Below, piece by piece: positions 5,749 through 58,561 of a stretch of DNA of 64,000 bases (positions are counted from its first letter, which is position 1; every line of letters starts with the position of its first letter). Position numbers and translations under genes: made by a program. Below the pieces are notes generated by a model. The model worked only from the letters and a program-made list of their open reading frames with translations, ran no database searches and was not told the DNA's origin. Origin of the DNA: Ignavibacteriota bacterium (GTDB lineage Bacteria > Bacteroidota > Ignavibacteria > Palsa-1295); contig CAWBEI010000002.1 in assembly GCA_963787835.1 (NCBI GenBank), positions 476,369 to 540,368 on the forward strand. The letters are read 5' to 3'.

Positions 5749-6576
5749 ATGATTCGAATTGATGGTAAAGATACTTACATAGTATATGCCGACTGGAATA
5801 TTTTTGACGATATTACAAAATCAAGACAGAATGAGCTCGAGAAAGTTGTTGCTTTAGCAAAAGAGAAGAAATCAATTATTTGTCCATATTCCATCATCCA
5901 CCTCCATGAGGCTAGCAACGTCGATCTTACAATTCCCGATGGAGATAAATTAGTTGATATTAACTATAATTCAATCCGTTCTTTCTCAGATTTTTGGCAT
6001 ATCGAGAATGCCGATGCTTCGGATCTCAGAGTGCGAAGAGTCGATCCTTCCGAAATTCTTGACCCACCTTTAGCCCGATCGTTTATCACGAACTTTGAAA
6101 ATGCGATAGCTCCAATTATGGAAGGAATTGCTATAGTCCGTCAAAATGCTAAAGATCATGGATTAGATTCAAAAGTTTTAAATAACACATCGTCAAAAAA
6201 TTTTATATCAAGAGTTGATGATATTCTTGTTTCACAAGAAAATTTAGCAGAATACAGGCATCTTGCACCTGAGGGTTTAACCTTCGATGATCTCTTGGTT
6301 TTAGGCTCAAAAATTGCTGGGACAAATGCCCATCAGGAGCTTGTGCTTGTTTATGTTCTCTCAGACCTGACTGGCTATCACAGTGATCGCGTCGCTGATT
6401 TAAAATCGCTCTGGAGGGACGCCTCCCATGTCGCCTTTGCACGAGGTGCAGATGTTTTAATATCTTCAGATAAGCGTTTGCGACAGAAGGCTACCTTAAC
6501 TTATGAAAAGCTTGGTTGGCCAACCATAGTTCTTGATGCCGTTGATGCTGCAAAATTAATTGAGCAAATCCCTTAA
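5749..6576 (+). CDS. Hypothetical protein in a low-GC island; the C-terminus has a PIN-like signature (…HVAFARGADVLISSDKRL…)
   Basis: The ORF is about 40% GC against ~55% for its flanks, and nothing else recognisable is in it. Confidence 0.5.
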   Translation: MIRIDGKDTYIVYADWNIFDDITKSRQNELEKVVALAKEKKSIICPYSIIHLHEASNVDLTIPDGDKLVDINYNSIRSFSDFWHIENADASDLRVRRVDPSEILDPPLARSFITNFENAIAPIMEGIAIVRQNAKDHGLDSKVLNNTSSKNFISRVDDILVSQENLAEYRHLAPEGLTFDDLLVLGSKIAGTNAHQELVLVYVLSDLTGYHSDRVADLKSLWRDASHVAFARGADVLISSDKRLRQKATLTYEKLGWPTIVLDAVDAAKLIEQIP

Positions 6577-6709
6577 TTTGATAGGCATTAAGAAATCCCC
6601 TCCCCATTCGGCACAACTTGGGCGATCTGTAAGTTTAAGAGCGTCCCGCATGATTGCTCATCCGATGACCGCTCATCCCCCGCGCATGATTGCTCATGCT
6701 TGATTTTTC

Positions 6710-8134: not shown

Positions 8135-9157
8135 ATGCAGAACCGATTCATCTCACAATACTTTGCGGAATTTCGCTACACATTTGCAGCGGGAATCTGC
8201 ATTGTTGTAATTGCCTACGCGGTGATCGTTGGGCTTGTGCTTGCCGTGCCGCATTTGCCATTGGCGAACAAGCGCACCTTCTATGGCTTACTCCGAGCAC
8301 AGATGGCAATCGATGAAGGCAAAAAGCTTCCGGAAACGAAGCAGGAGATGGTGCTTTTTCTTGGCAGTTCTGTGGTCGAACGCGGAGTTTCCGAACTTTC
8401 GATGGATAGCGTCTTCCGGAACGAACATCTTCCTTATGAAACGATGAACGCTGGCACCGGCGGTTTCTGCGCCGATGCAAACCTTCCTATGTTCCGCGCC
8501 ATGCTCGATGATGGATTAAAGCCAACGTTCGTCATTTACGGCGTTAGCATTCAGGAGTTGAATGGCGCTTCAACCGTCCATGCTTTTTTGGGAACGAAAG
8601 ATACGGCCTCCGTAAAACTAAAACCCAAAACATTCTGGAATATCTTGCGTTATGGCCCAACGGCGCTTGCTCCTCTTATGAGTGGCGACCACTTCCACCA
8701 GTATGTTTTTGCGGCGAATAATGCCTTTCGAGATGTGCCGAACCTGAACCTCTTCAACCGCCTGATGTTCGGCGAGAATAGCCCGCCACGCGACAGCACC
8801 TACGTGTTTAACCCTATCTACCTTCAGGATCTAAAAGAGATCGTGACGATGTGCCAGTCACGCGGGATAAAGGTAGCTCTTTATAATGCCCCGCTCCGCA
8901 AGCGCACAACGAGTGAGGTGGATATTCCGTACGAACATCGCGGCGACAGTTACGAAAAAGTTCTCGGCCTCGCGAAAGAGCAGCATATTCCATTCTGGAA
9001 TTTTGACAGAGTGGGAATTTTCACTTATTCGGAATTCCAGGATAATTACCATCTCACCCCGATGGGCGCGAAGAAGATCTCTGCCATGCTTGCCGATTCC
9101 ATTGCTCACTGGCAAGCAAGTTCTCACACTCAGGATGGCATCGAGACGCTGGAATAA
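8135..9157 (+). CDS. MBOAT-associated periplasmic partner protein (DltD/AlgJ-like), putative
   Basis: Lies 4 nt downstream of the MBOAT gene. It has an N-terminal membrane anchor and an extracytoplasmic domain, the usual arrangement for MBOAT partners. Confidence 0.4.
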   Translation: MQNRFISQYFAEFRYTFAAGICIVVIAYAVIVGLVLAVPHLPLANKRTFYGLLRAQMAIDEGKKLPETKQEMVLFLGSSVVERGVSELSMDSVFRNEHLPYETMNAGTGGFCADANLPMFRAMLDDGLKPTFVIYGVSIQELNGASTVHAFLGTKDTASVKLKPKTFWNILRYGPTALAPLMSGDHFHQYVFAANNAFRDVPNLNLFNRLMFGENSPPRDSTYVFNPIYLQDLKEIVTMCQSRGIKVALYNAPLRKRTTSEVDIPYEHRGDSYEKVLGLAKEQHIPFWNFDRVGIFTYSEFQDNYHLTPMGAKKISAMLADSIAHWQASSHTQDGIETLE

Positions 9158-21100: not shown

Positions 21101-23791
21101 CGTGATATTGCTCGTCGCAACCGTATCGTGGATCCCGGATGAATACACGAAAAAGTTGTGCTCGTTGTAGATACGAACCGCCGAGCACGAGTCGTTCGCG
21201 AACATCCCGTTCCCGTGGATCACCAGATCCTTCAGCGTGATGTTGCTTGCACCGTATTCGATACCGAAGACCGCACCCGCCTTCGTCTCGTTGCTGACGA
21301 TCGTCAAGCCGCGCTTCAAGGGCTCTGCCGTCACCTTGTCCGGGGACGGAACCGTCGACGGGTTATAGCCCTCGAAGTTCATATAACCAGGGAAGTGGTC
21401 GCCCATGTAAAAACAGAATGGCTGTGAGCCGCTGAACGTGATCGTCGGATTTTGGCCCGGATATGGGATCCATGTTACCGTCGAACTCGCCGAAAGGCCG
21501 TTGATCTGGCCAAGGTCCACCGCGCCATACGGAGAGGCCACATCGGTGTTCCCGTTCTCCGTGTAGGACGCATCCGTCAGGATCATCCGTACGTTCGCTC
21601 CGATACCGCGGAACCGCATCGTGTCCACCGCCTGATGGATCGTCTGGAACTGGCGCCCTACGCCCACATAGTAATCGCCCTTCAAACGGTCGATGATCGA
21701 AAACTGCGTGCACGACGTGTCGTTCGTCTGGTTCTCGTCGCTGCCCGCGCTGCTGCTGAAGTCTGCGATCGCGCACAGCGTGTAGCATCCCGGCGGGATC
21801 GTCGCGATCGTGTGGTATGCACCCGCGTTCGCTGTCGTTGGAAACTTGAACAGCACCTGACCCTGGTCGATGTTCAAGGCATCTTCTACCGTATCCGACT
21901 GGAATGCCAGCAACCCATCCGAACAACGGCGGATCTGGCAACGGATCTTGAAGCTGAACAGGTCCGATACACCCACCGACTGGAACAGCGCCGATGGCTG
22001 CCACGTCGTCAAATACGGCTTCTCTTCACCCGGCTGAGGGTTGAACACTCCCACCGAGGCCGCATCGTAAAGTGGAAGGATCGGCGTCGGAGATTTCGTC
22101 GTGTCGTCCGCACGCAGCTGATCGTTACCCATGATCGCAATACCGAAGACCGTATCCACGCCCAGCGTCACCGGAGTCCACGTCGGGCTTGAAGGGAACG
22201 CCGTATCGTAATACGCGCCTCTACCCGGACCCTGACCGCTCGAGGAATAATCCGTCACCCCATCCGAGTTGCCACCCATTGGGCCGGAAGGCCAGTATGG
22301 GATCACGACCGTGTCACGGAAGACCACTTTGCCCGTCGCGTCGTGTACCGTTGCCGTCACCGGTACATTGTATTGCGTGTCCGTTCCAAGGTTACGGAAA
22401 CGGATCGAGATCGGCGTCGCAATATCCACCTGAGTACGGGAACCCGCCGGAGGATTGATCACCGAGACCCCCTTGATATCGTTCGGTGGAGCGCACGTCC
22501 ACTCATCCGTCGATTGGTTGTCCGATGGATCCTGATCTGCCGTCGGCTGCAGATTGAACACCGTCATCGTGTCCTCGTAAATACCGTAGCCCGTGCTCTG
22601 CGCTTCGCCGAACTGCGCCGGTTCGCCAGGTGCGAACGCCGGGAACGTGATCGTCGTCTGGCTGAACCCTGCCGGGATCTGCGAGCTGTTCAGCGTGATC
22701 GTCTGATTATACACCTGGCCTACGCCATACTCCGAGATCGTGAAGTTCACCTGGCACGACGTCGAGACCTGGGAACCCGAATTAGCAAGGATCGCCGTTG
22801 GGGTGAAATACGTATTGATCGCCTGTGGAGTTTCGCTGGCAGGATTGGTGATCGTACCGGCCGTCAGATTATATGGCCAAGCAATCGCGATGCGGTAACT
22901 GACCTGCGGGAGCAACGGCTCCGTCGCGTTGTCTTCCGCATATCCGTAATAATCGACGATCGGCTGATTCGATGGGTTGCCGCCGTTGCCGTTCCAGCCA
23001 ATGGTCAGGAAGTCGCCGCCGCCCGATCCCTTAATGCCGGTCAGGCCGCTGTAAGCTTCAATAAGCCAGCCGCCATAGGAGTAATAGTAACCCCAGCTCG
23101 AATTAAATGTACCACTCTGTGGACCATAATTGAATTGGAAACTCGATATACCGCTTTCATAGACAACAGCCTGAAAATCTCCATTGAGGCCGGCCGAAGA
23201 GCCGTATTCATATGCATAAAGGCCGAGGGTCTGCACGACGAGCTCGCGGTTCGGGGCAGAGCCTAAAACGGCATAAGAGCAATTCGGAGCCGGACCATAC
23301 GTGAGGAAGCCCTCGAACGGTGCTAGCTTATAGTTTGGATAATAGGACTCATAAGGAGCATAGTCATATTCACTCTCCAAAAAATCATACTCATAATCCT
23401 CGTACACATAGCCATACTCACTCAGATAAAAAAAATCGGCATCATAATCGTACGCATAGTTGGCGGTCCAAGTGGGGCTAAAGATGACAGAACCGTATGA
23501 ATTAACTTCAAAATTGCCGGTGGTGGCGATCTGTTGGTTTTCAAACCGGAACGCGAACGGCACCGTATAACTCGGAGACATCTGATAATAATATCCCAGA
23601 CCCGAGACCGCCGTTCCGCTGATCGCACTCCAGTTCGGGCCTGAACCCAAACCCTGAGCATCAGGCGTCGTGATCATGTGCACAAGATAGCTTCTCATAG
23701 AGTACGTTTGCGCACGCACGACCCCGGTGGAAATCAAGCCGAACGCAACGAGCATGATTAGGAAAGCGTAGAGTTTTTTCATAGACTTCAA
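18173..23791 (-). CDS. Giant (1,872 aa) secreted T9SS cargo protein: Tyr/Gly/Ser-rich N-terminal region, right-handed parallel beta-helix (pectate-lyase-like), FN3 domain, and T9SS type-A C-terminal sorting domain
   Basis: Signal peptide. Beta-helix-like repeats (…NITLKDLVIHGNG…, …NNCELGNAKYGIYDHG…). An FN3-like block (…RIAAVDETGAETYS…). The C-terminus …LRVMDVTGKVV…GSYLYEMTATGADGRSATLSSKLTIEKQ is the sorting domain. Confidence 0.85.
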   Translation of the reverse strand: MKSMKKLYAFLIMLVAFGLISTGVVRAQTYSMRSYLVHMITTPDAQGLGSGPNWSAISGTAVSGLGYYYQMSPSYTVPFAFRFENQQIATTGNFEVNSYGSVIFSPTWTANYAYDYDADFFYLSEYGYVYEDYEYDFLESEYDYAPYESYYPNYKLAPFEGFLTYGPAPNCSYAVLGSAPNRELVVQTLGLYAYEYGSSAGLNGDFQAVVYESGISSFQFNYGPQSGTFNSSWGYYYSYGGWLIEAYSGLTGIKGSGGGDFLTIGWNGNGGNPSNQPIVDYYGYAEDNATEPLLPQVSYRIAIAWPYNLTAGTITNPASETPQAINTYFTPTAILANSGSQVSTSCQVNFTISEYGVGQVYNQTITLNSSQIPAGFSQTTITFPAFAPGEPAQFGEAQSTGYGIYEDTMTVFNLQPTADQDPSDNQSTDEWTCAPPNDIKGVSVINPPAGSRTQVDIATPISIRFRNLGTDTQYNVPVTATVHDATGKVVFRDTVVIPYWPSGPMGGNSDGVTDYSSSGQGPGRGAYYDTAFPSSPTWTPVTLGVDTVFGIAIMGNDQLRADDTTKSPTPILPLYDAASVGVFNPQPGEEKPYLTTWQPSALFQSVGVSDLFSFKIRCQIRRCSDGLLAFQSDTVEDALNIDQGQVLFKFPTTANAGAYHTIATIPPGCYTLCAIADFSSSAGSDENQTNDTSCTQFSIIDRLKGDYYVGVGRQFQTIHQAVDTMRFRGIGANVRMILTDASYTENGNTDVASPYGAVDLGQINGLSASSTVTWIPYPGQNPTITFSGSQPFCFYMGDHFPGYMNFEGYNPSTVPSPDKVTAEPLKRGLTIVSNETKAGAVFGIEYGASNITLKDLVIHGNGMFANDSCSAVRIYNEHNFFVYSSGIHDTVATSNITVNNCELGNAKYGIYDHGYHDAYDPVKGAYTTWRNYNDVITRNTVGTSSNPLSYAGIQFNSETGIVISHNEISNVNANVVPQGGGATWNVYGIVQPNMNTYIGPPSNPQWAGDTGNVTGAWIDANRIRIMTSAAGNTHGIALQQSSWQYTSTGLTNVKSTLPAVTQNRLTNNMILDLRTSAGKVFPILMTTISSTSGTVPYSTDKDSVFNNSISTNNATSNITIKYAKHAFIWNNIFQNTGTGPYTNYNLEVPRPYASSISSDYNVFDLRGTNVFDSVTEYDARYGTVFQSLYFRRLNDWRTYVGQDSHSLSGDPLFGTPAMGVDSLHMPPALTYIESPASNNGAWLGTSSEAHDFDGDVRSQNNPSPDIGADEWDGFQFTNDLAVLEISQPGGFSQTSDTSLVTTESPLWITGVVKNLSSVGVYSQKVTATVQRSVNGVWTTVYTGTSAPLTWQVGESKSVAFQGPALTASNSTGVFRVTVSVPNDQNDANNSQTKTFTILLKQNAVLLSYNGAASDGRQNRDSVIAALNRLGVPFDTIDRNAPKGLPNTTIIDYTPWWTIVWSSGDPGVAPVAGQSTGQGGPTLQETDEITRYLGAGQSYAKKSLVIAGQHIAYYNGYVQSNNPVTDTQWMQSTMHTQYVANYPTSSSYIGRIVGQQPAYWTFADSLSIPVNPNGSDCEECSTDLTSSLTPNVIMPSLTTPAVGPKVNGYAYTYSNYSYSNPNNGAGVSYYDPLVNTVFYAFDWANPHQTSPSTAAQDALTSGTTRTLAAAFAFFRSHNGTILPIDNVSASIQRVSGNAATITWDVVGLPNVVRYDVEQQNQNSWTVLHPVTAVADQTDYASSITGLDPSQSYTYRIAAVDETGAETYSNTVELGPDASQLGFTLGQSYPNPSAGVTEVSFTLPEASQVTLRVMDVTGKVVNSEVTNQSFEAGTQNVKLDLTSLPSGSYLYEMTATGADGRSATLSSKLTIEKQ

Positions 23792-24130: not shown

Positions 24131-27100
24131 TTACTGTTTTTCGATGGTGAGCTTGCTCGAGAGCGTGGCGCTGCGGCCGTCGGCTCCGGTGGCGGTCATC
24201 TCATAGAGATAGCTGCCGCTCGGTAGCGAGGTCAGGTCGAGCTTCACGTTCTGGGTGCCCGCCTCGAACGACTGGTTCGTCACCTCGCTGTTGACCACCT
24301 TGCCCGTCACGTCCATCACCCGCAGCGTTACCTGCGAGGCTTCCGGAAGCGTGAACGATACCTCCGTCACACCGGCCGAGGGATTCGGATAGCTCTGGCC
24401 CAGTGTAAAGCCAAGCTGGCTTGCATCCGGACCCAGTTCCACCGTATTCGAGTACGTCTCCGCACCCGTCTCATCGACCGCCGCAATGCGGTACGTGTAC
24501 GACTGCGAAGGATCCAGACCCGTGATCGAGGAGGCATAGTCCGTCTGATCCGCGACCGCCGTCACCGGATGCAGCACCGTCCAGCTGTTCTGGTTCTGCT
24601 GCTCCACATCGTAGCGTACCACGTTCGGCAAGCCTACCACATCCCACGTGATCGTCGCGGCATTACCGCTGACCCGCTGAATGCTCGCACTCACATTGTC
24701 GATCGGTAGGATCGTACCATTGTGACTGCGGAAGAAGGCAAAGGCTGCTGCAAGCGTTCGTGTCGTACCGCTCGTCAATGCATCCTGTGCCGCCGTGCTC
24801 GGAGACGTCTGGTGCGGGTTCGCCCAGTCAAAGGCATAGAACACCGTGTTCACCAGGGGATCGTAATACGATACACCCGCTCCATTGTTCGGATTGCTGT
24901 ACGAGTAGTTCGAGTACGTGTACGCATACCCGTTGACCTTCGGACCCACCGCAGGCGTCGTCAGGGATGGCATGATCACGTTCGGTGTCAGGCTCGAGGT
25001 CAGATCCGTCGAGCATTCCTCGCAGTCACTCCCGTTCGGATTGACCGGGATCGAAAGGCTGTCCGCAAACGTCCAGTACGCCGGCTGCTGGCCCACGATC
25101 CGGCCAATATACGAGGAACTCGTCGGGTAGTTCGCCACATACTGTGTGTGCATCGTCGATTGCATCCATTGCGTATCCGTCACCGGATTGTTCGACTGCA
25201 CATACCCATTGTAGTAGGCAATGTGCTGGCCCGCGATCACAAGGCTCTTCTTCGCATAGCTCTGCCCTGCGCCCAGATACCGCGTGATCTCATCCGTCTC
25301 CTGCAGCGTCGGACCGCCCTGACCCGTCGACTGACCGGCAACCGGGGCAACGCCCGGATCGCCGCTCGACCACACGATCGTCCACCACGGCGTGTAATCG
25401 ATGATCGTCGTGTTCGGAAGGCCCTTCGGAGCGTTACGGTCGATCGTGTCGAACGGTACCCCTAATCGGTTCAACGCCGCGATCACCGAATCACGGTTCT
25501 GACGGCCATCCGAGGCCGCACCATTATAGGAAAGCAATACCGCATTCTGCTTCAACAGGATCGTAAACGTCTTCGTCTGCGAGTTGTTCGCGTCGTTCTG
25601 GTCGTTCGGGACGCTCACCGTTACCCGGAACACCCCCGTGCTGTTCGACGCCGTCAACGCCGGACCCTGGAACGCGACGCTCTTCGACTCGCCCACCTGC
25701 CACGTCAACGGGGCAGACGTGCCCGTATACACCGTCGTCCATACACCATTGACCGAACGCTGCACCGTCGCCGTGACCTTCTGGCTATAGACGCCTACGC
25801 TCGATAGGTTCTTCACCACGCCCGTGATCCATAACGGACTCTCCGTCGTCACTAAGGACGTGTCGCTCGTCTGCGAGAACCCGCCCGGCTGTGAGATCTC
25901 TAAGACCGCAAGATCGTTCGTGAACTGGAACCCGTCCCATTCATCCGCCCCGATGTCCGGGCTCGGATTGTTCTGCGAACGAACGTCTCCGTCGAAATCA
26001 TGAGCCTCCGACGACGTACCAAGCCACGCGCCGTTGTTCGAGGCCGGACTTTCGATGTACGTCAAGGCCGGTGGCATGTGCAACGAATCCACTCCCATCG
26101 CTGGCGTACCGAACAACGGATCGCCCGATAACGAGTGGCTGTCCTGACCCACATACGTACGCCAGTCGTTCAAACGGCGGAAGTACAGGCTCTGGAATAC
26201 CGTCCCATACCGTGCGTCGTACTCCGTCACCGAGTCGAAGACGTTCGTGCCACGCAAATCGAATACGTTATAGTCCGAACTGATCGAACTTGCATACGGA
26301 CGAGGTACCTCTAAGTTGTAGTTCGTGTACGGACCGGTGCCCGTGTTCTGGAAAATGTTGTTCCAGATGAACGCGTGCTTCGCGTATTTGATCGTGATGT
26401 TCGATGTCGCGTTGTTCGTCGAGATCGAGTTGTTGAACACCGAATCCTTGTCCGTCGAATACGGAACCGTGCCCGACGTCGAAGAGATCGTCGTCATCAG
26501 GATCGGGAACACCTTCCCCGCGCTCGTACGAAGGTCTAAGATCATGTTGTTCGTCAATCGGTTCTGCGTTACCGCCGGTAACGTCGATTTCACATTCGTC
26601 AGACCCGTGCTCGTGTACTGCCACGACGACTGCTGCAGCGCGATCCCATGCGTGTTGCCCGCTGCCGATGTCATGATACGGATCCGGTTCGCATCGATCC
26701 AGGCACCCGTCACGTTACCCGTGTCACCCGCCCACTGAGGGTTCGAAGGCGGGCCGATGTACGTGTTCATGTTCGGCTGTACAATGCCATACACATTCCA
26801 CGTCGCTCCGCCGCCCTGCGGTACTACGTTCGCGTTCACGTTCGAGATCTCGTTGTGTGAGATCACGATCCCGGTCTCGCTGTTGAACTGGATGCCCGCG
26901 TACGATAATGGGTTCGACGACGTACCTACCGTGTTCCGCGTGATCACGTCATTGTAGTTGCGCCACGTCGTGTACGCACCCTTCACCGGATCGTACGCAT
27001 CGTGGTACCCGTGATCGTAGATCCCATACTTCGCATTGCCAAGCTCGCAATTATTAACCACGAGATTGTTCATCGCTACGGTATCGCGAATACCCGAGCC

Positions 27101-29791
27101 ATAGACATAGAAGTTGTGCTCGTTGTAGATACGGACCGCCGAGCACGAGTCGTTCGCGAACATCCCGTTCCCGTGGATCACCAGATCCTTCAGCGTGATG
27201 TTGCTCGCACCGTATTCGATACCGAAGACCGCACCCGCCTTCGTCTCGTTGCTGACGATCGTCAAGCCGCGCTTCAAGGGCTCGGCCGTCACCTTGTCCG
27301 GGGACGGAACCGTCGACGGGTTATAGCCCTCGAAGTTCATATAACCAGGGAAGTGGTCGCCCATGTAAAAACAGAATGGCTGTGAGCCGCTGAACGTGAT
27401 CGTCGGATTTTGGCCCGGATATGGGATCCACGTCACCGTCGAACTCGCCGAAAGGCCGTTGATCTGGCCAAGGTCCACCGCGCCATACGGAGAGGCCACA
27501 TCGGTGTTCCCGTTCTCCGTGTAGGACGCATCCGTCAGGATCATCCGTACGTTCGCTCCGATACCGCGGAACCGCATCGTGTCCACCGCCTGATGGATCG
27601 TCTGGAACTGGCGCCCTACGCCCACATAGTAATCGCCCTTCAAACGGTCAATGATCGAAAACTGCGTGCACGACGTGTCGTTCGTCTGGTTCTCGTCGCT
27701 GCCCGCGCTGCTGCTGAAGTCTGCGATCGCGCACAGCGTGTAGCATCCCGGCGGGATCGTCGCGATCGTGTGGTATGCACCCGCGTTCGCTGTCGTTGGA
27801 AACTTGAACAGCACCTGACCCTGGTCGATGTTCAAGGCATCTTCTACCGTATCCGACTGGAATGCCAGCAACCCATCCGAACAACGGCGGATCTGGCAAC
27901 GGATCTTGAAGCTGAACAGGTCCGATACACCCACCGACTGGAACAGCGCCGATGGCTGCCACGTCGTCAAATACGGCTTCTCTTCACCCGGCTGAGGGTT
28001 GAACACTCCCACCGAGGCCGCATCGTAAAGTGGAAGGATCGGCGTCGGAGATTTCGTCGTGTCGTCCGCACGCAGCTGATCGTTACCCATGATCGCAATA
28101 CCGAAGACCGTATCCACGCCCAGCGTCACCGGAGTCCACGTCGGGCTTGAAGGGAACGCCGTATCGTAATACGCGCCTCTGCCCGGACCCTGACCGCTCG
28201 AGGAATAATCCGTCACCCCATCCGAGTTGCCACCCATTGGGCCGGAAGGCCAGTAAGGGATCACGACCGTGTCACGGAAGACCACTTTGCCCGTCGCGTC
28301 GTGTACCGTTGCCGTCACCGGTACATTGTATTGCGTGTCCGTTCCAAGGTTACGGAAACGGATCGAGATCGGCGTAGCAATATCCACCTGGGTTCGGGAA
28401 CCCGCCGGAGGATTGATCACCGAGACCCCCTTGATGTCGTTCGGTGGAGCGCACGTCCACTCATCCGTCGATTGGTTGTCTGCGGGATCCTGATCTGCCG
28501 TCGGCTGTAGATTGAACACCGTCATCGTGTCCTCGTAGATCCCATAGCCCGTGCTTTGGGCTTCGCCGAACTGCGCCGCCTGACCTGGCGCAAACTGCGG
28601 GAACGTGATCGTCGAATTGCTGAACGCCGCCGGGATCTGCGAGCTGTTCAGGGTGATCGTCTGATTATATACCTGGCCTACGCCATACTCCGAGATCGTG
28701 AAGTTCACCTGGCACGACGTTGAGACCTGCGAACCCGAATTTGTAAGGATCGCCGTTGGGGTGAAGTTCGTATTGATCGCCTGTGGAGTTTCGCTGGCAG
28801 GATTGGTGATCGTACCAGCCGTCAGATCGTACGGCCAAGCGATGAACACACGATAGCTCGATTGCGGGAGCAGAGGCTCCGTCGCGTTGTCTTCCGCTGC
28901 ATAGCCATAGGCAAAACTGGTGTAGCCACTATTAGAATAATTATTGCAGTATTGAACCAACGGTTGATTCGAAGGGCTGCCGCCGTTGCCGTTCCAGCCG
29001 ATCGTCAGGTAATTACCGCCTGTGGATTTGACGGCAGTGTAGCCCGAGTATGATTCGATCAGCCAGCCGCCATAGGAGTAATAATACCCCCAGCTTGAGT
29101 TCCACGTCCCGGTCATCGGACCATAATTGAACTGGAAGTTCGAGATCCCTGACTCATAGACAACCGTCTGCCAGCTTCCAAAACATTGTGATAAGCCATA
29201 ATAATAAGAGGGTACAGCATCGGCCTCTACGACAAGCTCACGATTCGGAGCCGAGCCGAGAACCGTATAGAGCACGTTATAGCCAGAGCTGGGGCCATCT
29301 GTCAAAAACCCTTCGAAGGGGGCCAGCCTGTAATTGCCGTAATAGGAGTACCCGTAGTTGTAATCCTCTTCGTTCTCATAGAGGCAGTATGGAATGTAGT
29401 CATACACGTACCCATATTCACTTAGAAAAAACCAATCGTACCCACCGTAATCGTAGTTGGCAGTGCTGGGCCAGGTGGGGCTGAACACGACCGTGCCATA
29501 GTTGTTAAACCGGAACGTGTTTGTCGTCGCGATCTGCGTGTTTAAGAACCGGAATGCAAACGGCACCTGATAGGCCGCCGACATTTGTTCGCCATCGTAC
29601 TGCGATGACAATCCGCCGCTGGTGCCTGTGACGGAATGCCAGTTCGAGCCGGAACCTAATCCCTGCGGATCAGGCGTATCGACCTTCCGGACGAAGTAGC
29701 TGGTCATCGTGTACGTTTGCGCCTGCGCAACCTCGGAGGAAATGATTCCGAGCGCGAAAAGCGCGAGAAGAAAAGCGTAGAGTTTTTTCAT
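24131..29791 (-). CDS. Giant (1,886 aa) secreted T9SS cargo protein, tandem paralog of 18173..23791. Identical over the C-terminal ~1,560 aa except one ~25-aa patch; the N-terminal ~300 aa are diverged
   Basis: The reverse-frame ORFs in the six-frame track are sequence-identical between the copies (for example 18764..19507 and 24722..25465). Same domain order as gene 1. Confidence 0.85.
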   Translation of the reverse strand: MKKLYAFLLALFALGIISSEVAQAQTYTMTSYFVRKVDTPDPQGLGSGSNWHSVTGTSGGLSSQYDGEQMSAAYQVPFAFRFLNTQIATTNTFRFNNYGTVVFSPTWPSTANYDYGGYDWFFLSEYGYVYDYIPYCLYENEEDYNYGYSYYGNYRLAPFEGFLTDGPSSGYNVLYTVLGSAPNRELVVEADAVPSYYYGLSQCFGSWQTVVYESGISNFQFNYGPMTGTWNSSWGYYYSYGGWLIESYSGYTAVKSTGGNYLTIGWNGNGGSPSNQPLVQYCNNYSNSGYTSFAYGYAAEDNATEPLLPQSSYRVFIAWPYDLTAGTITNPASETPQAINTNFTPTAILTNSGSQVSTSCQVNFTISEYGVGQVYNQTITLNSSQIPAAFSNSTITFPQFAPGQAAQFGEAQSTGYGIYEDTMTVFNLQPTADQDPADNQSTDEWTCAPPNDIKGVSVINPPAGSRTQVDIATPISIRFRNLGTDTQYNVPVTATVHDATGKVVFRDTVVIPYWPSGPMGGNSDGVTDYSSSGQGPGRGAYYDTAFPSSPTWTPVTLGVDTVFGIAIMGNDQLRADDTTKSPTPILPLYDAASVGVFNPQPGEEKPYLTTWQPSALFQSVGVSDLFSFKIRCQIRRCSDGLLAFQSDTVEDALNIDQGQVLFKFPTTANAGAYHTIATIPPGCYTLCAIADFSSSAGSDENQTNDTSCTQFSIIDRLKGDYYVGVGRQFQTIHQAVDTMRFRGIGANVRMILTDASYTENGNTDVASPYGAVDLGQINGLSASSTVTWIPYPGQNPTITFSGSQPFCFYMGDHFPGYMNFEGYNPSTVPSPDKVTAEPLKRGLTIVSNETKAGAVFGIEYGASNITLKDLVIHGNGMFANDSCSAVRIYNEHNFYVYGSGIRDTVAMNNLVVNNCELGNAKYGIYDHGYHDAYDPVKGAYTTWRNYNDVITRNTVGTSSNPLSYAGIQFNSETGIVISHNEISNVNANVVPQGGGATWNVYGIVQPNMNTYIGPPSNPQWAGDTGNVTGAWIDANRIRIMTSAAGNTHGIALQQSSWQYTSTGLTNVKSTLPAVTQNRLTNNMILDLRTSAGKVFPILMTTISSTSGTVPYSTDKDSVFNNSISTNNATSNITIKYAKHAFIWNNIFQNTGTGPYTNYNLEVPRPYASSISSDYNVFDLRGTNVFDSVTEYDARYGTVFQSLYFRRLNDWRTYVGQDSHSLSGDPLFGTPAMGVDSLHMPPALTYIESPASNNGAWLGTSSEAHDFDGDVRSQNNPSPDIGADEWDGFQFTNDLAVLEISQPGGFSQTSDTSLVTTESPLWITGVVKNLSSVGVYSQKVTATVQRSVNGVWTTVYTGTSAPLTWQVGESKSVAFQGPALTASNSTGVFRVTVSVPNDQNDANNSQTKTFTILLKQNAVLLSYNGAASDGRQNRDSVIAALNRLGVPFDTIDRNAPKGLPNTTIIDYTPWWTIVWSSGDPGVAPVAGQSTGQGGPTLQETDEITRYLGAGQSYAKKSLVIAGQHIAYYNGYVQSNNPVTDTQWMQSTMHTQYVANYPTSSSYIGRIVGQQPAYWTFADSLSIPVNPNGSDCEECSTDLTSSLTPNVIMPSLTTPAVGPKVNGYAYTYSNYSYSNPNNGAGVSYYDPLVNTVFYAFDWANPHQTSPSTAAQDALTSGTTRTLAAAFAFFRSHNGTILPIDNVSASIQRVSGNAATITWDVVGLPNVVRYDVEQQNQNSWTVLHPVTAVADQTDYASSITGLDPSQSYTYRIAAVDETGAETYSNTVELGPDASQLGFTLGQSYPNPSAGVTEVSFTLPEASQVTLRVMDVTGKVVNSEVTNQSFEAGTQNVKLDLTSLPSGSYLYEMTATGADGRSATLSSKLTIEKQ

Positions 29792-54722: not shown

Positions 54723-54926
54723 GTACCCGCAGCCCAGGGTGGAGCGAAGCGGAACCCTGGGTAACGAATAAAATTAGAGTTTATTAGCCCTGAAAGGGCG
54801 ATGTTTGCCGCCGGGATTTTACAACGCCCTTTCAGGGCTTGGGAACATAAAACGCAACGCTAACCCAGGGTTCCGCTCGCAAGCTCGCTTCACCCTGGGC
54901 TGCGAGTACTCCGTCGCTCCGCGACT
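54723..54926. mobile_element. MITE derivative of the IS200/IS605-like element (left-end hairpin, inner palindrome, right-end hairpin; no tnpA)
   Basis: Left GTACCCGCAG-CCCAGGG…CCCTGGG (54723-54766). Inner AGCCCTGAAAGGGCG…CGCCCTTTCAGGGCT (54786-54839). Right …CACCCTGGG-CTGCGAGTAC-TCCGTCGCTCCGCGACT (54862-54926). It ends 7 nt from the stop of the 298-aa gene. Confidence 0.55.
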
Positions 54927-54932
54927 AATTGC

Positions 54933-55829
54933 TCATTCAATTATTGGAACTATCTGAATTTTGTTGGACAGTTCGGTACGACCGAAACTTTTCAGGAAGG
55001 ATTGCAGGGCGTTGAAGCCGGATTGGTCAGGTACGACGATTTCCAAAACATCCTCATCGTTGAACGTTAAGTTGAATTCGGGCTTTAACCATTTATCGTC
55101 AGAACCAGCGTCAATAGTTTCGTCGCCCTTAAAACCATGAGGAGACAGTGCGCGCCATTCCCTCTCATCATAATTGCGAATGCGCTCTCCGGTTGGGAGA
55201 TTTTCTTCGTAGCAGCGCATATAGGAGTCGCGATCCTCAAGTTCATTGTGGAGCCTGCGTATAGCCCACATTAGAGCACTGAAGGTTTGCCGCATTGCTT
55301 CATCTTCTGGCAGGTTGCCATCTGCAATCGCAACTAATTCCCGCATGTATTTTTCGAGTTTGCCGTGTTCGGTTCGAAGAGCCGTTGGGTCCATTGGCGT
55401 TCCATCTCCATATTGCTCAGAGAGTTCACGGAGTCTTGATGCCTGCAACATTTGCAAATAACTTCTGTCCGAACTATATGGCTCCGGCAACACGTCCGGC
55501 AAATGATTTAAGTTCTTGAATGCTAAGTACGAGCCTCCGACACCTACGGAGTCAGTATGCACATAACGGACGGGCGAAATCCGATTTTTTATTCCCCATT
55601 CCTTTGTCAAACCAATGGCCACCGGACGCGCTTTGCGAAGGTGTGGAGCGTCAGATGAAGGCAGGTCGCAAAAACAAACAACATAATTGGTCTGCGTGTA
55701 AGGAAACTTGGGGTATGGAACCGTTTCGACCTGTTTAGAATAGCGGAACCCGCCACAGGCCAGAATCGATTTGCATGCCTCTAATGATGTATAATGGAAA
55801 AGCGTGTCAGTACTGATCTTATTGGGCAT
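54933..55829 (-). CDS. Hypothetical protein with an AbiGi/DUF2971-like N-terminal motif; candidate abortive-infection / defense component
   Basis: N-terminal …TLFHYTSLEACKSILACGGF… matches the FHYT…IL signature of those families. The rest is unassigned. Confidence 0.4.
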   Translation of the reverse strand: MPNKISTDTLFHYTSLEACKSILACGGFRYSKQVETVPYPKFPYTQTNYVVCFCDLPSSDAPHLRKARPVAIGLTKEWGIKNRISPVRYVHTDSVGVGGSYLAFKNLNHLPDVLPEPYSSDRSYLQMLQASRLRELSEQYGDGTPMDPTALRTEHGKLEKYMRELVAIADGNLPEDEAMRQTFSALMWAIRRLHNELEDRDSYMRCYEENLPTGERIRNYDEREWRALSPHGFKGDETIDAGSDDKWLKPEFNLTFNDEDVLEIVVPDQSGFNALQSFLKSFGRTELSNKIQIVPIIE

Positions 55830-55854: not shown

Positions 55855-56391
55855 TTACGCCTTCAAAAACCCCAGCTCATACACCATTGGCTGTAACTTT
55901 TCCGTCAATGCTTTGTAGGCCGATTCGAAGGGTTTGAAGCTGACGGGCGGGAAATCGCCGCTTTCGTTACGAGCTTGCAACGCCTTGCGGATTTGATACC
56001 ACCCCACATCCGCGCGGTTTAGTTTTAGTTCTTCGCGGACGGTGTGAACGTCAGTATCGGCAAAATATGCTTTCCACAATGCTTTTCCGGCTTCGAGCAC
56101 TGCGCTGGCTTCTTTCGAGAATTTCTTACCGCGCATATATTGCACCATAAAATCGCTCTCGAACCTGTCGGGCGCGCCGACCTCTTTTTCAGTGAAGGGA
56201 ATGAAATGGTTCACGATGCTCCACTTCTTTCCGTTCCATTCTAAATCGTTGGCGCTGGCGGTGAGGTTGCTGCCTAAGAATTTAGTCCCGAAGGGATGGT
56301 GTACTCGCAGCCCAGGGTGTAGCGTAGCGGAACCCTGGGTTCGAGGTAGGTATAAATTTCTAAGCCCCGAAGGGGCGATGTACCTAATCAT
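55855..56391 (-). CDS. Hypothetical protein. Its 5' end is overlapped by the IS200-like left end, so the true start is uncertain
   Basis: ORF encoding …GKKWSIVNHFIPFTEKEVGAPDRFESDFMVQYMRGKKF… with no recognisable family. The first ~30 codons coincide with 56301-56377 of the element. Confidence 0.3.
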   Translation of the reverse strand: MIRYIAPSGLRNLYLPRTQGSATLHPGLRVHHPFGTKFLGSNLTASANDLEWNGKKWSIVNHFIPFTEKEVGAPDRFESDFMVQYMRGKKFSKEASAVLEAGKALWKAYFADTDVHTVREELKLNRADVGWYQIRKALQARNESGDFPPVSFKPFESAYKALTEKLQPMVYELGFLKA

Positions 56392-56803
56392 CGTCCTTCA
56401 AAAAATATTTTGGATCGTATTCAATCCCTGCCGCTTTCAACATATCCTCAAACTCTTCTTGGAACGTCTTATGACGATGATGTTCCTCTTGATTTTCGAT
56501 GTATTGCGCGACATTCTTGAGATGACTTGCGCTTACGCTGAATACACCATAACCGCCTTGCCAGCTAAAATCTTTTCCTAATTTTGATTTCAACCAAGCC
56601 GATGATTTCGATTTTATCTCACGAACGACGGTTGCGACCGACGATTCACGACCGAGATCGATCAGGAGGTGCACATGATCAGGCATTCCGCCTTCCATAA
56701 TCAATCGCGCCTTGCATTCGTGCAAGATCGGAGGTTAACCCAACATTCCGTCCGCCGCGGCGGACTCCATGTTGGGCTGCGAGTACTCCGTCGCTCCGCG
56801 ACT
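56301..56803 (-). mobile_element. tnpA: IS200/IS605-like insertion element: left-end hairpin, N-terminally truncated Y1 (HuH) transposase TnpA (56384..56725), right-end hairpin
   Basis: The 113-aa ORF carries the HuH motif (…PDHVHLLI…), the catalytic Tyr block (…GGYGVFSVS…) and the family C-terminal motif …YIENQEE. It starts at TTG directly after an in-frame TAA at the right-end boundary, so it lacks the N-terminal ~40 aa. Left end: GTACTCGCAG-CCCAGGG…CCCTGGG. Right end: CCCAACAT…ATGTTGGG-CTGCGAGTAC. Confidence 0.7.
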
Positions 56804-56830
56804 ATTGAATCTCAGTGGCGAAGCCACGAT

Positions 56831-57009
56831 GTACTCGCAGCCCAGGGCGCGCGAAGCAAGCCCTGGGTCATGAATTTTAACAAAATCAAGCCCTGTAAGG
56901 GCGGTGTACTTCGCCCTTTCAGGGCTTGATAAAAATAAGAATGGTTCCGTTAACCCAACATTCCGCTTCGCTCCATGTTGGGCTGCGAGTACTCCGTCGC
57001 TCCGCGACT
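56831..57009. mobile_element. Second MITE derivative (left end, inner palindrome AGCCCTGTAAGGGCG/CGCCCTTTCAGGGCT, right end); its last bases supply the stop codon of the HNH ORF
   Basis: Same terminal and subterminal hairpins as the element at 54723-54926. Confidence 0.55.
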
Positions 57010-57322
57010 AAGATTCGCCAACAAGTGCATCCATGATTGGAATATTTCTCCGGCGGGAATTATCGTGCAAGCAACATGTCACGAGATTATCGTATGAATT
57101 ATCCCCGCCTTTTGTGACAGGCTGAATGTGATCGAGCGTCGCGCTGAATCGTGTTAGCTGCTTACCGCATTTGTAACACTTGTAGCCGTCCCGTTCGAAA
57201 ATCTTGAGACGATTTTCAGCGACATTGTAAAAGAGTGCCGAATTCCACGACCGAGTGACGAAACAAATACCAATAGAATGCGGCCTCGTATGGTAACAAT
57301 CGGGGCTGAAGAAAATCCACAA
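57008..57322 (-). CDS. HNH endonuclease
   Basis: …GYKCYKCGKQLT…LDHIQPVTKGGDNSYDNLVTCCLHDNSRRRN… gives the full HNH / zinc-finger motif. The start is probably downstream of the annotated Met. Confidence 0.7.
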   Translation of the reverse strand: MWIFFSPDCYHTRPHSIGICFVTRSWNSALFYNVAENRLKIFERDGYKCYKCGKQLTRFSATLDHIQPVTKGGDNSYDNLVTCCLHDNSRRRNIPIMDALVGES

Positions 57323-57449
57323 TCTGACAGACGATACCTGGATGTTCGAGAGCGTCGAAGTTTCTCTCGAACGAATCCGGAGCGGCAGCCTTTGAATCCG
57401 TTTCGATCTCGTTAAGCAGTTCTCGAATTTTTTCGATTTGTTCTTTCAT
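57216..57449 (-). CDS. Small hypothetical ORF; overlaps the HNH ORF in another frame
   Basis: 77 aa. Its stop overlaps the HNH ORF by 107 nt, so the pair may be one frameshifted gene. Confidence 0.25.
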   Translation of the reverse strand: MKEQIEKIRELLNEIETDSKAAAPDSFERNFDALEHPGIVCQIVDFLQPRLLPYEAAFYWYLFRHSVVEFGTLLQCR

Positions 57450-57700
57450 ATTTTTACAAAATTACGAATAAACTCATCTTCCTGCGTTTCGATCTTGAAG
57501 GAAACGAGGTGCGTACCGATATACTGCGAGACGGTGTCCAGCGCTTCCTGCGTAACGTCGCTCGCCCGCTTGCCCCACTTGATCGTCTTTTTTTCGAGGA
57601 ACGGAATAACGTCCGCGCTCTTCATTATAGCCGCTTTCTGCGTATCGACCACCGCAAGAAATGGCGGAACATACTCGCCCTTGTTCAATGCCTGCTGCAC
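57446..57700 (-). CDS. Small hypothetical ORF (GTG start) in 4-nt overlap with the next ORF
   Basis: 84 aa, with ATGA-type coupling to 57216..57449. Confidence 0.25.
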   Translation of the reverse strand: MQQALNKGEYVPPFLAVVDTQKAAIMKSADVIPFLEKKTIKWGKRASDVTQEALDTVSQYIGTHLVSFKIETQEDEFIRNFVKI

Positions 57701-57897
57701 ATAATGCAGACCGCCGCGGCGGACGTGAACATCGCATAACTGGAAAGCTTGGAGTTATCCTTCGCCTCGAACCAAATTTCTTTGGTTTGAATATCGATCA
57801 GGTTTTTCGAATACCCCTTCAACCCCAGCGCCTTGATGTAAATATCCTTCACATCCTCCTCGCTTTTGCACTGTTTCAGTTTTTCAAAGAGGGTCAT
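57685..57897 (-). CDS. Small hypothetical ORF; first of four consecutive overlapping minus-strand ORFs
   Basis: 70 aa. Its 3' end overlaps the next ORF at a CCGCCGCGGCGG palindrome. Confidence 0.25.
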   Translation of the reverse strand: MTLFEKLKQCKSEEDVKDIYIKALGLKGYSKNLIDIQTKEIWFEAKDNSKLSSYAMFTSAAAVCIMCSRH

Positions 57898-58047
57898 GCG
57901 TGTGAAGGGTTATGGATTGGGTTATGAATTCGGGATTGATGCTTTGCGGGCGCGGGAAAGAACATAGTGGGCACCTATTTCGTGTTCCATCCATCCCACG
58001 ATTTGTGCCGTCCCTCCGGGACTTTTAACTCTAAAAAAATCGCTAAC

Positions 58048-58067
58048 CCCGGACTCACGTCCGGGGC
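58048..58067. repeat. GC-rich hairpin CCCCGGACTCACGTCCGGGG. It is the exact reverse complement of 54383-54402, and together the two bracket the island
   Basis: Flanking bases also match (…catatt[t/c]g[c/t]agccccggacgtgagtccggggtt…), giving ~35-bp imperfect inverted repeats. Confidence 0.6.
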
Positions 58068-58561
58068 TACGAATATGTCGTGCCTATCGGCACTAAGAAA
58101 ATAATTTGGAATTTTGAGGCGTCTCGGAAAAGTGTCGTATATTAGGTGGTGAGATGATGGGCACCTATATCAATTACGAATTAAGAATTACGAATTAAGA
58201 GTAGGGGCTCGGGGTTCATTGACAATCGTCGGCGGTGGCTTTCGTTATGAACGAGTCCTTTGAGAAAATGGATTTTACTATTCTTTCAGAACAAATGGCG
58301 AAAGCAGCTCGGAAACGAGGGGTCTTCGGGAACTCACAAGAAAAAGAAATGGCACCTATTTCCAATAGAACATTAGTAAGGGTGGTAAACATTTTTACCT
58401 ACGTACCGGGAAACGGGAAGGAGCAAAATTCGTTGTGAAGGTACTCTGGCACGTTTAGCCGGAACATCCTCCATAATCACGACACGTTGCCTTTGATCGA
58501 ACCACCCTCCACTCCCACTGGAAATCCGGTCCCGCCGGATCTGCCACCCGATCCACATATC

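What the first reader, a model, noticed from the sequence alone, without database searches (positions are those of the whole stretch)
57008..57897. Four consecutive overlapping minus-strand ORFs ending in an HNH nuclease: frameshift-decayed nuclease gene or small-ORF operon
ORFs of 70, 84, 77 and 104 aa overlap by 16, 4 and 107 nt. The first junction falls exactly on a CCGCCGCGGCGG palindrome that also occurs inside the IS200-like right end at 56748-56762. The last ORF carries a complete HNH motif. Its stop codon is supplied by the terminal bases of a MITE. Two readings are possible. One is a ~330-aa HNH-domain enzyme (for example a restriction or homing nuclease) broken by three frameshifts and a repeat insertion. 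The other is a genuinely coupled set of small genes (the 4-nt ATGA overlap in the middle favours coupling there).
Basis: seen in the sequence. Interest (0 to 1): 0.5.

Follow-up and report, generated by a model that had tools for sequence, protein, structure and literature searches.

The report
Wreck of two nuclease genes
The four small overlapping ORFs are not one broken HNH enzyme or a small-gene operon; they are the remains of two unrelated genes, the front end of a restriction-modification-type gene and a deleted HNH nuclease gene, at a spot where related bacteria keep swapping in different nuclease and restriction genes.

Summary
In detail: the four minus-strand ORFs, their overlaps, the palindrome, the HNH motif and the repeat-supplied stop codon are all there.

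Neither interpretation holds.
- ORF1+ORF2 are codons 1-141 of a widespread, unannotated ~795-aa protein. It resembles single-chain (Type IIG) restriction-modification enzymes. This part is its PD-(D/E)XK nuclease domain.
- The frame breaks where a 14-nt palindrome replaces 6 nt (+8).
- ORF3+ORF4 are the two ends of a separate 237-aa HNH nuclease gene. It has lost 291 nt internally, out of frame.
- The last ~140 codons of the ~795-aa gene survive 1.2 kb downstream (56280-55855).
- The missing middle is replaced by the HNH remnant, REP-like repeats and a truncated IS200/RAYT gene.

Seven related contigs (at least two from Ignavibacteriota MAGs) show the same split gene with six different inserts: NotI-, Eco29kI- and XhoI-type R-M systems, two kinds of HNH gene and a T5orf172 gene.

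The retained end fragments show low dN/dS (0.03-0.18 for the N-fragment), which I cannot explain.

The finding itself is ordinary gene decay. The slot around it is a moderately interesting variant of allelic R-M substitution.

The parts
57467..57897 (-). N-fragment: codons 1-58 and 61-141 of a ~795-aa Type IIG-like restriction-modification-type gene. This is its PD-(D/E)XK nuclease domain and corresponds to ORF1 plus most of ORF2.
57710..57723 (.). 14-nt palindromic insert (minus strand TCCGCCGCGGCGGT) replacing the 6 nt CAACTG (Gln59-Leu60). The net change of +8 nt causes the ORF1/ORF2 frame change.
   Evidence: Alignment with L003, L004 and L001. The same 14/15-mer replaces 5 nt in the loop of a REP unit at 56751-56764. 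It replaces 6 nt in frame (+9) in the C-fragment of L003 and L093.
57446..57466 (-). Short tail of ORF2 (R-NFVKI-stop). It is the end of a relic sequence that precedes the nuclease cassette in relatives. It follows a 219-nt deletion relative to L001. Its TGA overlaps the HNH start codon as ATGA.
   Evidence: blastn breakpoints: window 57898-57470 matches L001 7352-7772, and window 57456-57247 matches L001 7992-8203. The tail and the ATGA overlap are homologous to L093's INFVAI-stop/ATG.
57247..57449 (-). 5' part of a solitary HNH nuclease gene, codons 1-67 of 237. This is most of ORF3.
   Evidence: tblastn of P0009 residues 1-72 matches 57449-57234 at 79% identity. blastn matches L001 7992-8203.
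57231..57246 (-). 16-nt filler at the scar of a 291-nt internal deletion in the HNH gene. The net loss is 275 nt, which is out of frame. Part of the filler repeats a sequence about 12 nt upstream.
   Evidence: Window 57247 matches L001 8203 and window 57230 matches L001 8495. All 120 best family members are 232-274 aa long and cover 96-100% of the 237-aa query.
57008..57230 (-). 3' part of the same HNH gene, codons 165-237, containing the complete HNH domain plus the TAG stop. This is the homologous part of ORF4. ORF4's first ~31 codons are out-of-frame read-through of the 5' part.
   Evidence: tblastn of P0009 residues 165-237 matches 57232-57014 at 90% identity. Pfam HNH E 8e-9.
56949..57010 (-). 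Its first three bases, TAG, are the HNH stop codon.
   Evidence: The repeat head occurs at 54897-54927, 56774-56804 and 56980-57010 with 0 mismatches. The same repeat abuts the stop codon of the HNH gene in L001 and of the T5orf172 gene in L076. It gives a weak Rfam Acido-Lenti-1 match of 25 bits, below the cut-off of 37.
56734..56804 (-). Second copy of the REP-like repeat (REP-A). It carries the palindrome in its loop.
   Evidence: families D1, D4, I9.
56384..56733 (-). IS200/RAYT-type Y1 transposase gene lacking its first ~38 codons.
   Evidence: Pfam Y1_Tnp E 1.3e-17, covering model positions 39-121 of 121. An intact 151-aa version sits at the same position in L093.
55855..56280 (-). C-fragment: the last ~140 codons (654-793) of the same ~795-aa gene. 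It is now read as the end of a 178-aa ORF whose start lies in REP-derived sequence.
   Evidence: tblastn of this ORF hits the 3' end of the full-length gene in about 60 loci. The L041 full-length protein, residues 654-793, matches 56280-55861 at 83% identity.

Best explanation
The interval is non-functional wreckage of two adjacent, unrelated genes.

Gene 1 (ORF1+ORF2):
- It is the 5' end (codons 1-141) of a ~795-aa single-polypeptide gene of restriction-modification type.
- The parent architecture is an N-terminal PD-(D/E)XK nuclease domain, then N6-adenine-methylase-like motifs, then a variable region, then a conserved C-terminal ~140 aa.
- In an ancestor, the middle of that gene was replaced by foreign DNA. 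The two ends were left as flanks.
- In this window the N-terminal flank was then hit by a 14-nt GC palindrome that replaces two invariant residues and shifts the frame.
- A 219-nt deletion also trimmed it to codon 141.

Gene 2 (ORF3+ORF4):
- It is the occupant of the slot, a solitary 237-aa HNH nuclease gene.
- A 291-nt internal, out-of-frame deletion removed residues 68-164. This separated its start from its HNH domain.

Shown: the homologies, the breakpoints, the split architecture, and the alternative cassettes in relatives.

Inferred:
- The order of events.
- That neither remnant makes a working protein.
- That cassettes are exchanged by recombination in the conserved flanks.
For: Homology of ORF1+2:
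- The concatenated ORFs hit two separate protein sets. The N-terminal set reaches E 1e-82; the HNH set is 237-238 aa.
- Full-length parents are 792-863 aa. Residues 1-502 are conserved, about 503-650 are variable, and the last ~140 aa are conserved.

Fold of the N-fragment:
- D35, E44 and K46 are invariant.

Breakpoints against intact relatives:
- +8 nt at the palindrome.
- 219-nt and 291-nt deletions.

HNH family: the 120 best members are 232-274 aa and cover 96-100% of the intact query, so the window copy is the aberrant one.

No residues 142-653 of the parent are detectable anywhere in the window.

The same split gene occurs with other inserts:
- L076: T5orf172 gene.
- L093: HNH_repeat-HNH gene plus an intact RAYT.
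- L003: methylase plus NotI-type enzyme.
- L092 and L137: Eco29kI-type enzyme plus C5 methylase.
- L138: methylase plus XhoI-type enzyme.
- L001: intact version of this HNH gene.
Against: - The N-fragment is 100% identical in protein to L003 despite 17 synonymous differences. The frameshift is therefore very recent, or it is a 1-nt assembly error at a GC palindrome. The other two insertion sites of this palindrome are net +9, not +8.
- Low dN/dS on the fragments suggests the flanks are not simple junk in relatives.
- I could not examine reads or expression.
- ORF4 could in principle be translated on its own from TTG.
Confidence: 0.88

Rival explanations
1. One ~330-aa HNH-domain enzyme (restriction or homing nuclease) broken by three frameshifts and a repeat insertion.
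For: All four ORFs are on one strand, abut each other, and end in an HNH domain.
Against: - No protein among 1,101 hits spans both halves.
- The N-terminal half belongs to a ~795-aa family that continues into a methylase-like region, not into an HNH domain.
- In L001 the two genes are separate ORFs of 213 and 237 aa, with a stop codon and 6 nt between them.
- Junctions 2 and 3 involve deletions of 219 and 291 nt, not frameshifts.
Confidence: 0.02
2. A genuine operon of four translationally coupled small genes.
For: The ATGA overlap at ORF2/ORF3 is conserved in L093. In relatives the fragment gene and the nuclease gene are separated by only 1-6 nt.
Against: - No ORF has homologs of its own length.
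- Each pair of ORFs maps colinearly onto one longer protein.
- ORF2 and ORF4 begin at GTG and TTG codons that are internal or out-of-frame relative to the homologs.
Confidence: 0.03
3. The ORF1/ORF2 frameshift is an assembly or base-calling error. The real sequence would carry the 15-nt in-frame form of the palindrome (…T-SAAAD-L…). The window would then encode a single ~149-aa N-fragment protein that may still be expressed. The HNH gene remains a deletion pseudogene.
For: - The other two sites where this palindrome replaces native sequence are net +9. At the C-fragment site it reads in frame as SAAAD or PAAAG. Here the change is +8, one base short.
- There are zero nonsynonymous versus 17 synonymous differences from L003.
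Against: - Even in frame, the insert replaces invariant Gln59-Leu60 in the middle of a helix.
- The fragment also ends at codon 141, inside the last helix of the domain (133-150).
- No reads are available. Scans of public metagenomes found no second copy of this allele.
Confidence: 0.2
4. ORF4 alone is a functional minimal HNH nuclease, translated from its own TTG start. It would have been trimmed from the larger gene.
For: The HNH domain in ORF4 is complete and free of stops. It is 90% identical to the intact homolog over 73 aa.
Against: - Its first ~31 codons are out-of-frame translation of the 5' gene part.
- All 120 close homologs retain the ~165-aa N-terminal region.
- The absence of secondary lesions is equally explained by a recent deletion.
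Confidence: 0.05

Closest known systems
Type IIG single-chain restriction-modification enzymes (BpuSI, PDB 3s1s; DrdV, PDB 7lo5; MmeI family)
   Same: The parent of ORF1+2 shares these features:
- An N-terminal PD-(D/E)XK nuclease domain. BpuSI and DrdV are the best structural matches.
- A methylase-like segment with motif I (D-M-C-C-G-V-G-N) and motif IV (N-P-P-Y).
- A variable, presumably target-recognition region.
- It is a solitary gene with no conserved neighbours in 27 loci.
   Different: - No Pfam or NCBIfam model matches it. There are only weak PADLOC MTase_II hits.
- At ~795 aa it is shorter than BpuSI (870 aa) or DrdV (~1015 aa).
- It has an extra conserved C-terminal ~140 aa after the variable region.
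- Its activity and specificity are untested.
- The window retains only the two ends.
Substitution-type allelic R-M systems and Type IIG target-recognition-domain swapping (Furuta, Abe and Kobayashi 2010, PMC2853133)
   Same: Different R-M systems occupy the same locus between conserved flanks in related genomes. Within Type IIG genes, conserved ends flank a diverged internal segment.
   Different: - The conserved flanks here are the two ends of the Type IIG-like coding sequence itself.
- What is swapped in is not another recognition domain. It is a whole Type II R-M system or a solitary HNH or T5orf172 nuclease gene.
- The flanking fragments show low dN/dS.
Solitary HNH endonuclease genes (Pfam PF01844; annotated as McrA-like by JGI)
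   Same: ORF3+4 derive from a 237-aa protein with a C-terminal HNH domain. Relatives are solitary genes in varied contexts.
   Different: - The window copy lacks residues 68-164 and is out of frame.
- The family's N-terminal ~165 aa has no assigned domain.
- Whether the intact protein is a restriction, homing or other nuclease is unknown.
REP elements with RAYT (IS200-like Y1 transposase); Rfam Acido-Lenti-1 motif (RF01687)
   Same: Short GC-rich hairpin repeats sit just after stop codons, next to a Y1 transposase gene. One unit at 58047-58094 passes the Rfam cut-off, 39 bits against 37.
   Different: - The unit that supplies the HNH stop scores only 25 bits.
- The RAYT gene here is 5'-truncated.
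- No link between RAYT activity and cassette exchange is demonstrated.

Membership tests
HNH endonuclease (PF01844) | HNH domain matching the Pfam HNH model above its curated cut-off | tested here: met
   ORF4 residues 49-91 match PF01844 at E 8.2e-9, 35.9 bits against a cut-off of 21.4. HNH_5 and HNH_4 also pass. By eye the sequence reads CYKCG…LDHIQP…DNSYDNL…CCLHDN.
237-aa solitary HNH protein family (P0009, P0087 and relatives) | One continuous ORF of about 232-274 aa with an N-terminal ~165-aa region followed by the HNH domain | tested here: not met
   The window has residues 1-67 and 165-237 in different frames. 291 nt are replaced by 16 nt. The 120 best homologs cover 96-100% of the query.
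Type IIG restriction-modification enzyme | N-terminal PD-(D/E)XK nuclease domain | tested here: met
Type IIG restriction-modification enzyme | N6-adenine (gamma-class) methyltransferase domain in the same polypeptide | tested here: inconclusive
   - Parent family: motif I-like DMCCGVGN and NPPY are seen in the sequences.
- Pfam and NCBIfam give nothing significant. PADLOC MTase_II reaches only E 1.7e-4.
- The model of this region has low confidence.
- In the window this region is absent.
Type IIG restriction-modification enzyme | Variable target-recognition region, and cleavage plus methylation activity | not testable with these tools
   A variable segment at about residues 503-650 exists in the parent family. 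Enzymatic activities cannot be tested here.
IS200/IS605-type Y1 transposase / RAYT | Complete Y1_Tnp domain | tested here: not met
   The match covers model positions 39-121 only. The HUH-like HVH triplet (HVHLL) is retained. About 38 N-terminal codons present in L093's 151-aa copy are missing.
Operon of translationally coupled small genes | Each small ORF has independent homologs of its own size | tested here: not met
   ORF pairs map onto single longer homologs. Only the ATGA overlap is conserved, in L093.
Rfam Acido-Lenti-1 (RF01687) hairpin repeat | Covariance-model score at or above the gathering cut-off of 37 bits | tested here: inconclusive
   58047-58094 scores 39 bits and passes. 56814-56867 scores 33.1, 56954-57009 (the unit giving the stop codon) 25.2, and 56284-56339 21.4. 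These three are below the cut-off.

The most novel reading that the evidence does not exclude
The split Type IIG-like gene may be a dedicated exchange slot rather than dead DNA. Two points lead to this:
- Its nuclease-domain fragment and C-terminal fragment are kept under purifying selection.
- ORF-sized selfish nuclease genes (HNH, HNH_repeat-HNH, T5orf172) and whole Type II R-M systems are swapped in and out between these fragments, from the start codon to a REP element.

The swapping could work by homing-like double-strand-break repair or by flank recombination.

A 14/15-nt GC palindrome (TCCGCCGCGGCGGA/C, with the CCGCGG site of SacII/Eco29kI at its centre) spreads into these flanks and into REP loops by an unknown short-patch mechanism.
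Probability: 0.25. Interest if true: 0.65.

Novelty: new variant of a known kind. Interest (0 to 1): 0.38.

Why it matters
For annotation: these four ORFs should be marked as two pseudogene remnants, not as hypothetical proteins or an HNH enzyme.

Beyond the window, three things came out of the work:
1. A very widespread protein family that resembles Type IIG restriction enzymes has no Pfam or NCBIfam model. It occurs in at least 561 species-representative genomes, mostly Bacteroidota.
2. In one set of related contigs (two of them named as Ignavibacteriota MAGs) the middle of that gene has been replaced by at least six different nuclease or R-M cassettes. The gene's own ends persist with low dN/dS. 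This would be a compact natural system for studying how defence genes displace each other.
3. A tiny GC palindrome appears to have been copied into coding sequence at several sites.

None of these is demonstrated functionally.

Tried and rejected
- **Family scans of the four ORFs and their conceptual fusions.** Pfam, PHROGs, NCBIfam and PADLOC recognised only the HNH domain.
- **Sequence search of the PDB with the parent protein.** No hit.
- **Model of the 508-aa conserved part.** Too poor beyond residue 150 to use, mean pLDDT 61.
- **Conserved partner genes of the full-length parent.** None in 27 loci.
- **Origin of the methylase-like relic in L001, L076 and L093.** It does not derive from the L003 or L138 cassette methylases.
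- **Two metagenome scans for the palindrome-bearing allele.** The first found nothing. The second returned 43 unrelated GC-rich chance matches.
- **The palindrome copy in L001 at 3700.** It is native coding sequence (LRRGGR in a dehydrogenase), not an insertion. The enrichment claim therefore rests on three sites only.
- **An integron attC reading of the REP unit.** I noticed GCCCAAC…GTTGGGT by eye. I dropped the idea because the L001 version of the repeat lacks these cores, the inverted repeat is too short, and no integrase gene was seen nearby.
- **Literature search for the palindrome.** Only primer sequences.
- **L092 versus L137.** They are 100% identical except for the first ~450 nt of the N-fragment. 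This looks like a recombination tract. However, L092's copy lies at a contig end, so an assembly chimera cannot be excluded.

Full report
**Observation**

The four minus-strand ORFs exist at the stated coordinates: 57897-57685, 57700-57446, 57449-57216 and 57322-57008. They overlap by 16, 4 and 107 nt.

- The palindrome CCGCCGCGGCGG occurs exactly at 57711-57722 and 56752-56763.
- ORF4 has a significant HNH domain, PF01844 at E 8e-9.
- Its TAG stop is the first three bases of a 31-nt repeat head found three times in the window against none expected.

The description is confirmed. One detail differs: the palindrome lies 11 nt upstream of ORF2's first start codon rather than in the 16-nt overlap. 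The frame change does happen inside it.

**What ORF1 and ORF2 are**

I searched with a conceptual concatenation of all four ORFs. It returned two disjoint sets of proteins.

The larger set, E down to 1e-82, matches only ORF1+ORF2. In 80 loci fetched from species-representative genomes (561 matches in total, mostly Bacteroidota), the gene is normally 792-863 aa. Its layout is:

| Region | Residues | Conservation |
|---|---|---|
| N-terminal part | 1-502 | highly conserved |
| Middle segment | about 503-650 | variable |
| C-terminal part | last ~140 aa | conserved |

No Pfam or NCBIfam model recognises the family. PADLOC gives only weak MTase_II hits. The sequences do carry a motif-I-like DMCCGVGN and an NPPY motif.

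- many other PD-(D/E)XK nucleases.

Asp35, Glu44 and Lys46 are invariant in 117 homologs. The gene has no conserved neighbours in 27 loci.

I therefore read the parent as a single-chain enzyme of Type IIG restriction-modification kind. ORF1+ORF2 are its nuclease domain, codons 1-141. Membership in Type IIG is not proven, because the methylase domain is supported only by motifs and activity is untested.

**Junction 1 (ORF1/ORF2)**

Intact relatives read …YAMFT-QL-LHYVQQ…. In the window the 6 nt CAACTG are replaced by the 14 nt TCCGCCGCGGCGGT, a net +8, which shifts the frame.

The same 14/15-mer also:
- replaces 5 nt in the loop of the REP unit at 56751-56764, by comparison with its sister unit at 56949-57010;
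- replaces 6 nt in frame (+9, reading SAAAD or PAAAG) in the C-terminal fragment of this same gene in L003 and L093.

Similarity between the REP unit and the gene extends beyond the palindrome, 26 of 32 nt (pair I8). This hints at a short templated patch, but I have no mechanism.

The other two sites are net +9 and this one is +8. A later 1-nt loss, or a 1-nt assembly error, is therefore plausible. I could not test this. Public metagenome scans did not contain the allele.

**What ORF3 and ORF4 are**

They match the two ends of one 237-aa HNH protein:
- P0009 residues 1-72 at 57449-57234, 79% identical;
- P0009 residues 165-237 at 57232-57014, 90% identical.

At the DNA level the window lacks L001 positions 8204-8494 (291 nt) and has 16 nt in their place. 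The net loss is 275 nt, which is out of frame.

All 120 best relatives are 232-274 aa and cover 96-100% of the intact protein. The window copy is therefore a deletion pseudogene, not a short variant. ORF4's first ~31 codons are out-of-frame translation of the 5' part.

Relatives are solitary genes in unrelated contexts. The role of the intact protein (restriction, homing or other) is unknown.

**Junction 2 (ORF2/ORF3)**

This is the boundary between the two genes. In L001 the fragment gene (213 aa) and the HNH gene (237 aa) are separate, with 6 nt between them.

Relative to L001 the window lacks 219 nt: codons 142-197 of the fragment plus most of a short methylase-like relic.

The remaining tail NFVKI-stop and its ATGA overlap with the HNH start are homologous to INFVAI-stop/ATG in L093. 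The overlap is therefore inherited and was not created by decay. This is the one element of the operon reading that survives: in intact relatives the fragment gene and the nuclease gene look co-transcribed.

**The wider locus**

The 178-aa ORF at 56391-55855 ends with the last ~140 residues of the same ~795-aa parent. No trace of residues 142-653 exists in the window.

The gene is therefore split. Its middle is replaced by:
- the HNH remnant;
- REP-like repeats, some matching Rfam Acido-Lenti-1;
- an IS200/RAYT gene lacking its first ~38 codons.

Related contigs show the same split with different contents. L003/L007 and L076 are named Ignavibacteriota MAGs in their records. They are also the best-matching genomes, at 88-90% nt identity.

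| Locus | Parent N-part | Parent C-part | Insert |
|---|---|---|---|
| window | 1-58, 61-141 | 654-793 | deleted HNH, REPs, truncated RAYT |
| L076 | 1-171 | 654-793 | T5orf172/MUG113 gene, REP, truncated RAYT |
| L093 | 4-171 | 654-793 | HNH_repeat-HNH gene, intact RAYT |
| L003 | 1-209 | 631-793 | methylase + NotI-type enzyme |
| L092, L137 | 1-195 | 640-792 | Eco29kI-type enzyme + C5 methylase |
| L138 | 1-196 | 739-794 | methylase + XhoI-type enzyme |
| L001 | 1-208 | none found | intact version of this HNH gene |

In the solitary-nuclease versions, homology between loci stops at the cassette's ATG and resumes at the TAG of the REP unit. Split copies form two basal clades apart from the full-length Bacteroidota copies.

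**Unexpected: selection on the fragments**

By simple Nei-Gojobori counts:

| Comparison | Synonymous | Nonsynonymous | dN/dS |
|---|---|---|---|
| N-fragment, window vs L003 | 17 | 0 | 0 |
| N-fragment, window vs L076 | 22 | 2 | 0.02 |
| N-fragment, all other pairs among L003, L076, L092, L093, L001, L137 and L138 | | | 0.03-0.18 |
| N-fragment, L076 vs L093 | 43 | 11 | 0.05 |
| C-fragment | | | 0.07-0.10 |
| Truncated RAYT, window vs L076 | 17 | 1 | 0.012 |

L076 and L093 share the same breakpoint and relic, so their truncated state is probably inherited. The relic tails after the breakpoint have drifted into different frames.

This suggests the fragments are still constrained in relatives. 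It cuts against a simple junk picture of the flanks, and I cannot explain it. These are pairwise estimates on few sequences. Recent independent truncations or gene conversion are alternative explanations.

**Comparison with what is known**

Substitution of one R-M system by another between conserved flanks is documented. So is swapping of the recognition region inside Type IIG genes (Furuta et al. 2010, PMC2853133).

The twist here is that the conserved flanks are the two ends of the Type IIG-like coding sequence itself. The inserts are whole R-M systems or solitary nucleases. I rate that as a new variant of a known kind.

**Verdict**

The finding as written is ordinary decay of two genes. Confidence in the two-remnant anatomy is high. 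The slot model and the palindrome are leads, not results.

Noticed in passing
L008-L086 (for example L041 6001-8385); window 57467-57897 and 55855-56280: A ~795-aa protein family occurs in at least 561 species-representative genomes, mostly Bacteroidota. It has 75-88% amino-acid identity over residues 1-502 and no Pfam or NCBIfam model. Its features are Type IIG-like: a PD-(D/E)XK N-domain, DMCCGVGN and NPPY motifs, a variable middle and a conserved C-terminal ~140 aa. It is solitary, with no conserved neighbours. Metagenome contigs often break right at the variable region.
   Followed up: partly
window 57710-57723 and 56751-56764; L003 10885-10899; L093 8127-8141: The GC palindrome TCCGCCGCGGCGGA(C) replaces 5-6 native nucleotides at three different sites: the N-fragment, the C-fragment and a REP loop. 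At the REP-loop and C-fragment sites the net change is +9; at the C-fragment site it reads in frame as SAAAD or PAAAG. Its centre is CCGCGG, which from my own knowledge is the Eco29kI/SacII site. An Eco29kI-type cassette occupies this slot in L092 and L137. The mechanism is unknown.
   Followed up: partly
window 57467-57897, 56384-56733, 55855-56280, compared with L003, L076, L092, L093, L001, L137, L138: The retained gene fragments, including a 5'-truncated RAYT, show dN/dS of 0.01-0.18 between genomes that all carry truncated versions. The relic tails next to them have frameshifted. This suggests the fragments are still under selection, or that some process mimics selection.
   Followed up: partly
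L010 6175-6177: The closest full-length relative of the parent gene has a single TAA nonsense at codon 59. This is the same codon that the palindrome destroys in the window. It may be coincidence or a preferred way of silencing the nuclease domain.
   Followed up: no
L092 1-450 versus L137 5947-6400: Two contigs are 100% identical over about 6 kb, covering the Eco29kI cassette and downstream genes. They are only 71-85% identical over the first ~400 nt, which cover most of the N-fragment. This is either a recombination tract in the flank or an assembly chimera, since L092's copy is at a contig end.
   Followed up: partly
window 54933-55829 (-) and 54897-54927: An AbiGi-like gene (Pfam E 9e-13, PADLOC AbiGi) lies directly downstream of the C-fragment. 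It is followed 6 nt after its stop by the same REP head. Related loci carry different genes at this position, so the variable region extends beyond the slot.
   Followed up: no
window 58047-58094, 56814-56867, 56954-57009, 56284-56339: The REP-like hairpin repeats of this genome match the Rfam motif Acido-Lenti-1 (RF01687). One is above the gathering score and three are below. The association with a RAYT gene suggests this orphan RNA motif may be a REP-type DNA repeat here.
   Followed up: no
window 18173-23791 and 24131-29791 (-): Two adjacent very long ORFs (1872 and 1886 aa) have matching internal ORF patterns on the opposite strand. They look like a tandem duplication of a giant gene. I did not examine them.
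   Followed up: no
L001 7920-7994; L076 6514-6579; L093 about 6560-6630: A relic of about 20-25 codons (…ELHRVLKPAGSLYLHCDPTASHY…) resembles a SAM-methyltransferase segment. It sits between the N-fragment and the solitary nuclease cassettes in three loci. This implies an earlier, now lost, methylase occupant. It does not derive from the L003 or L138 cassette methylases.
   Followed up: partly
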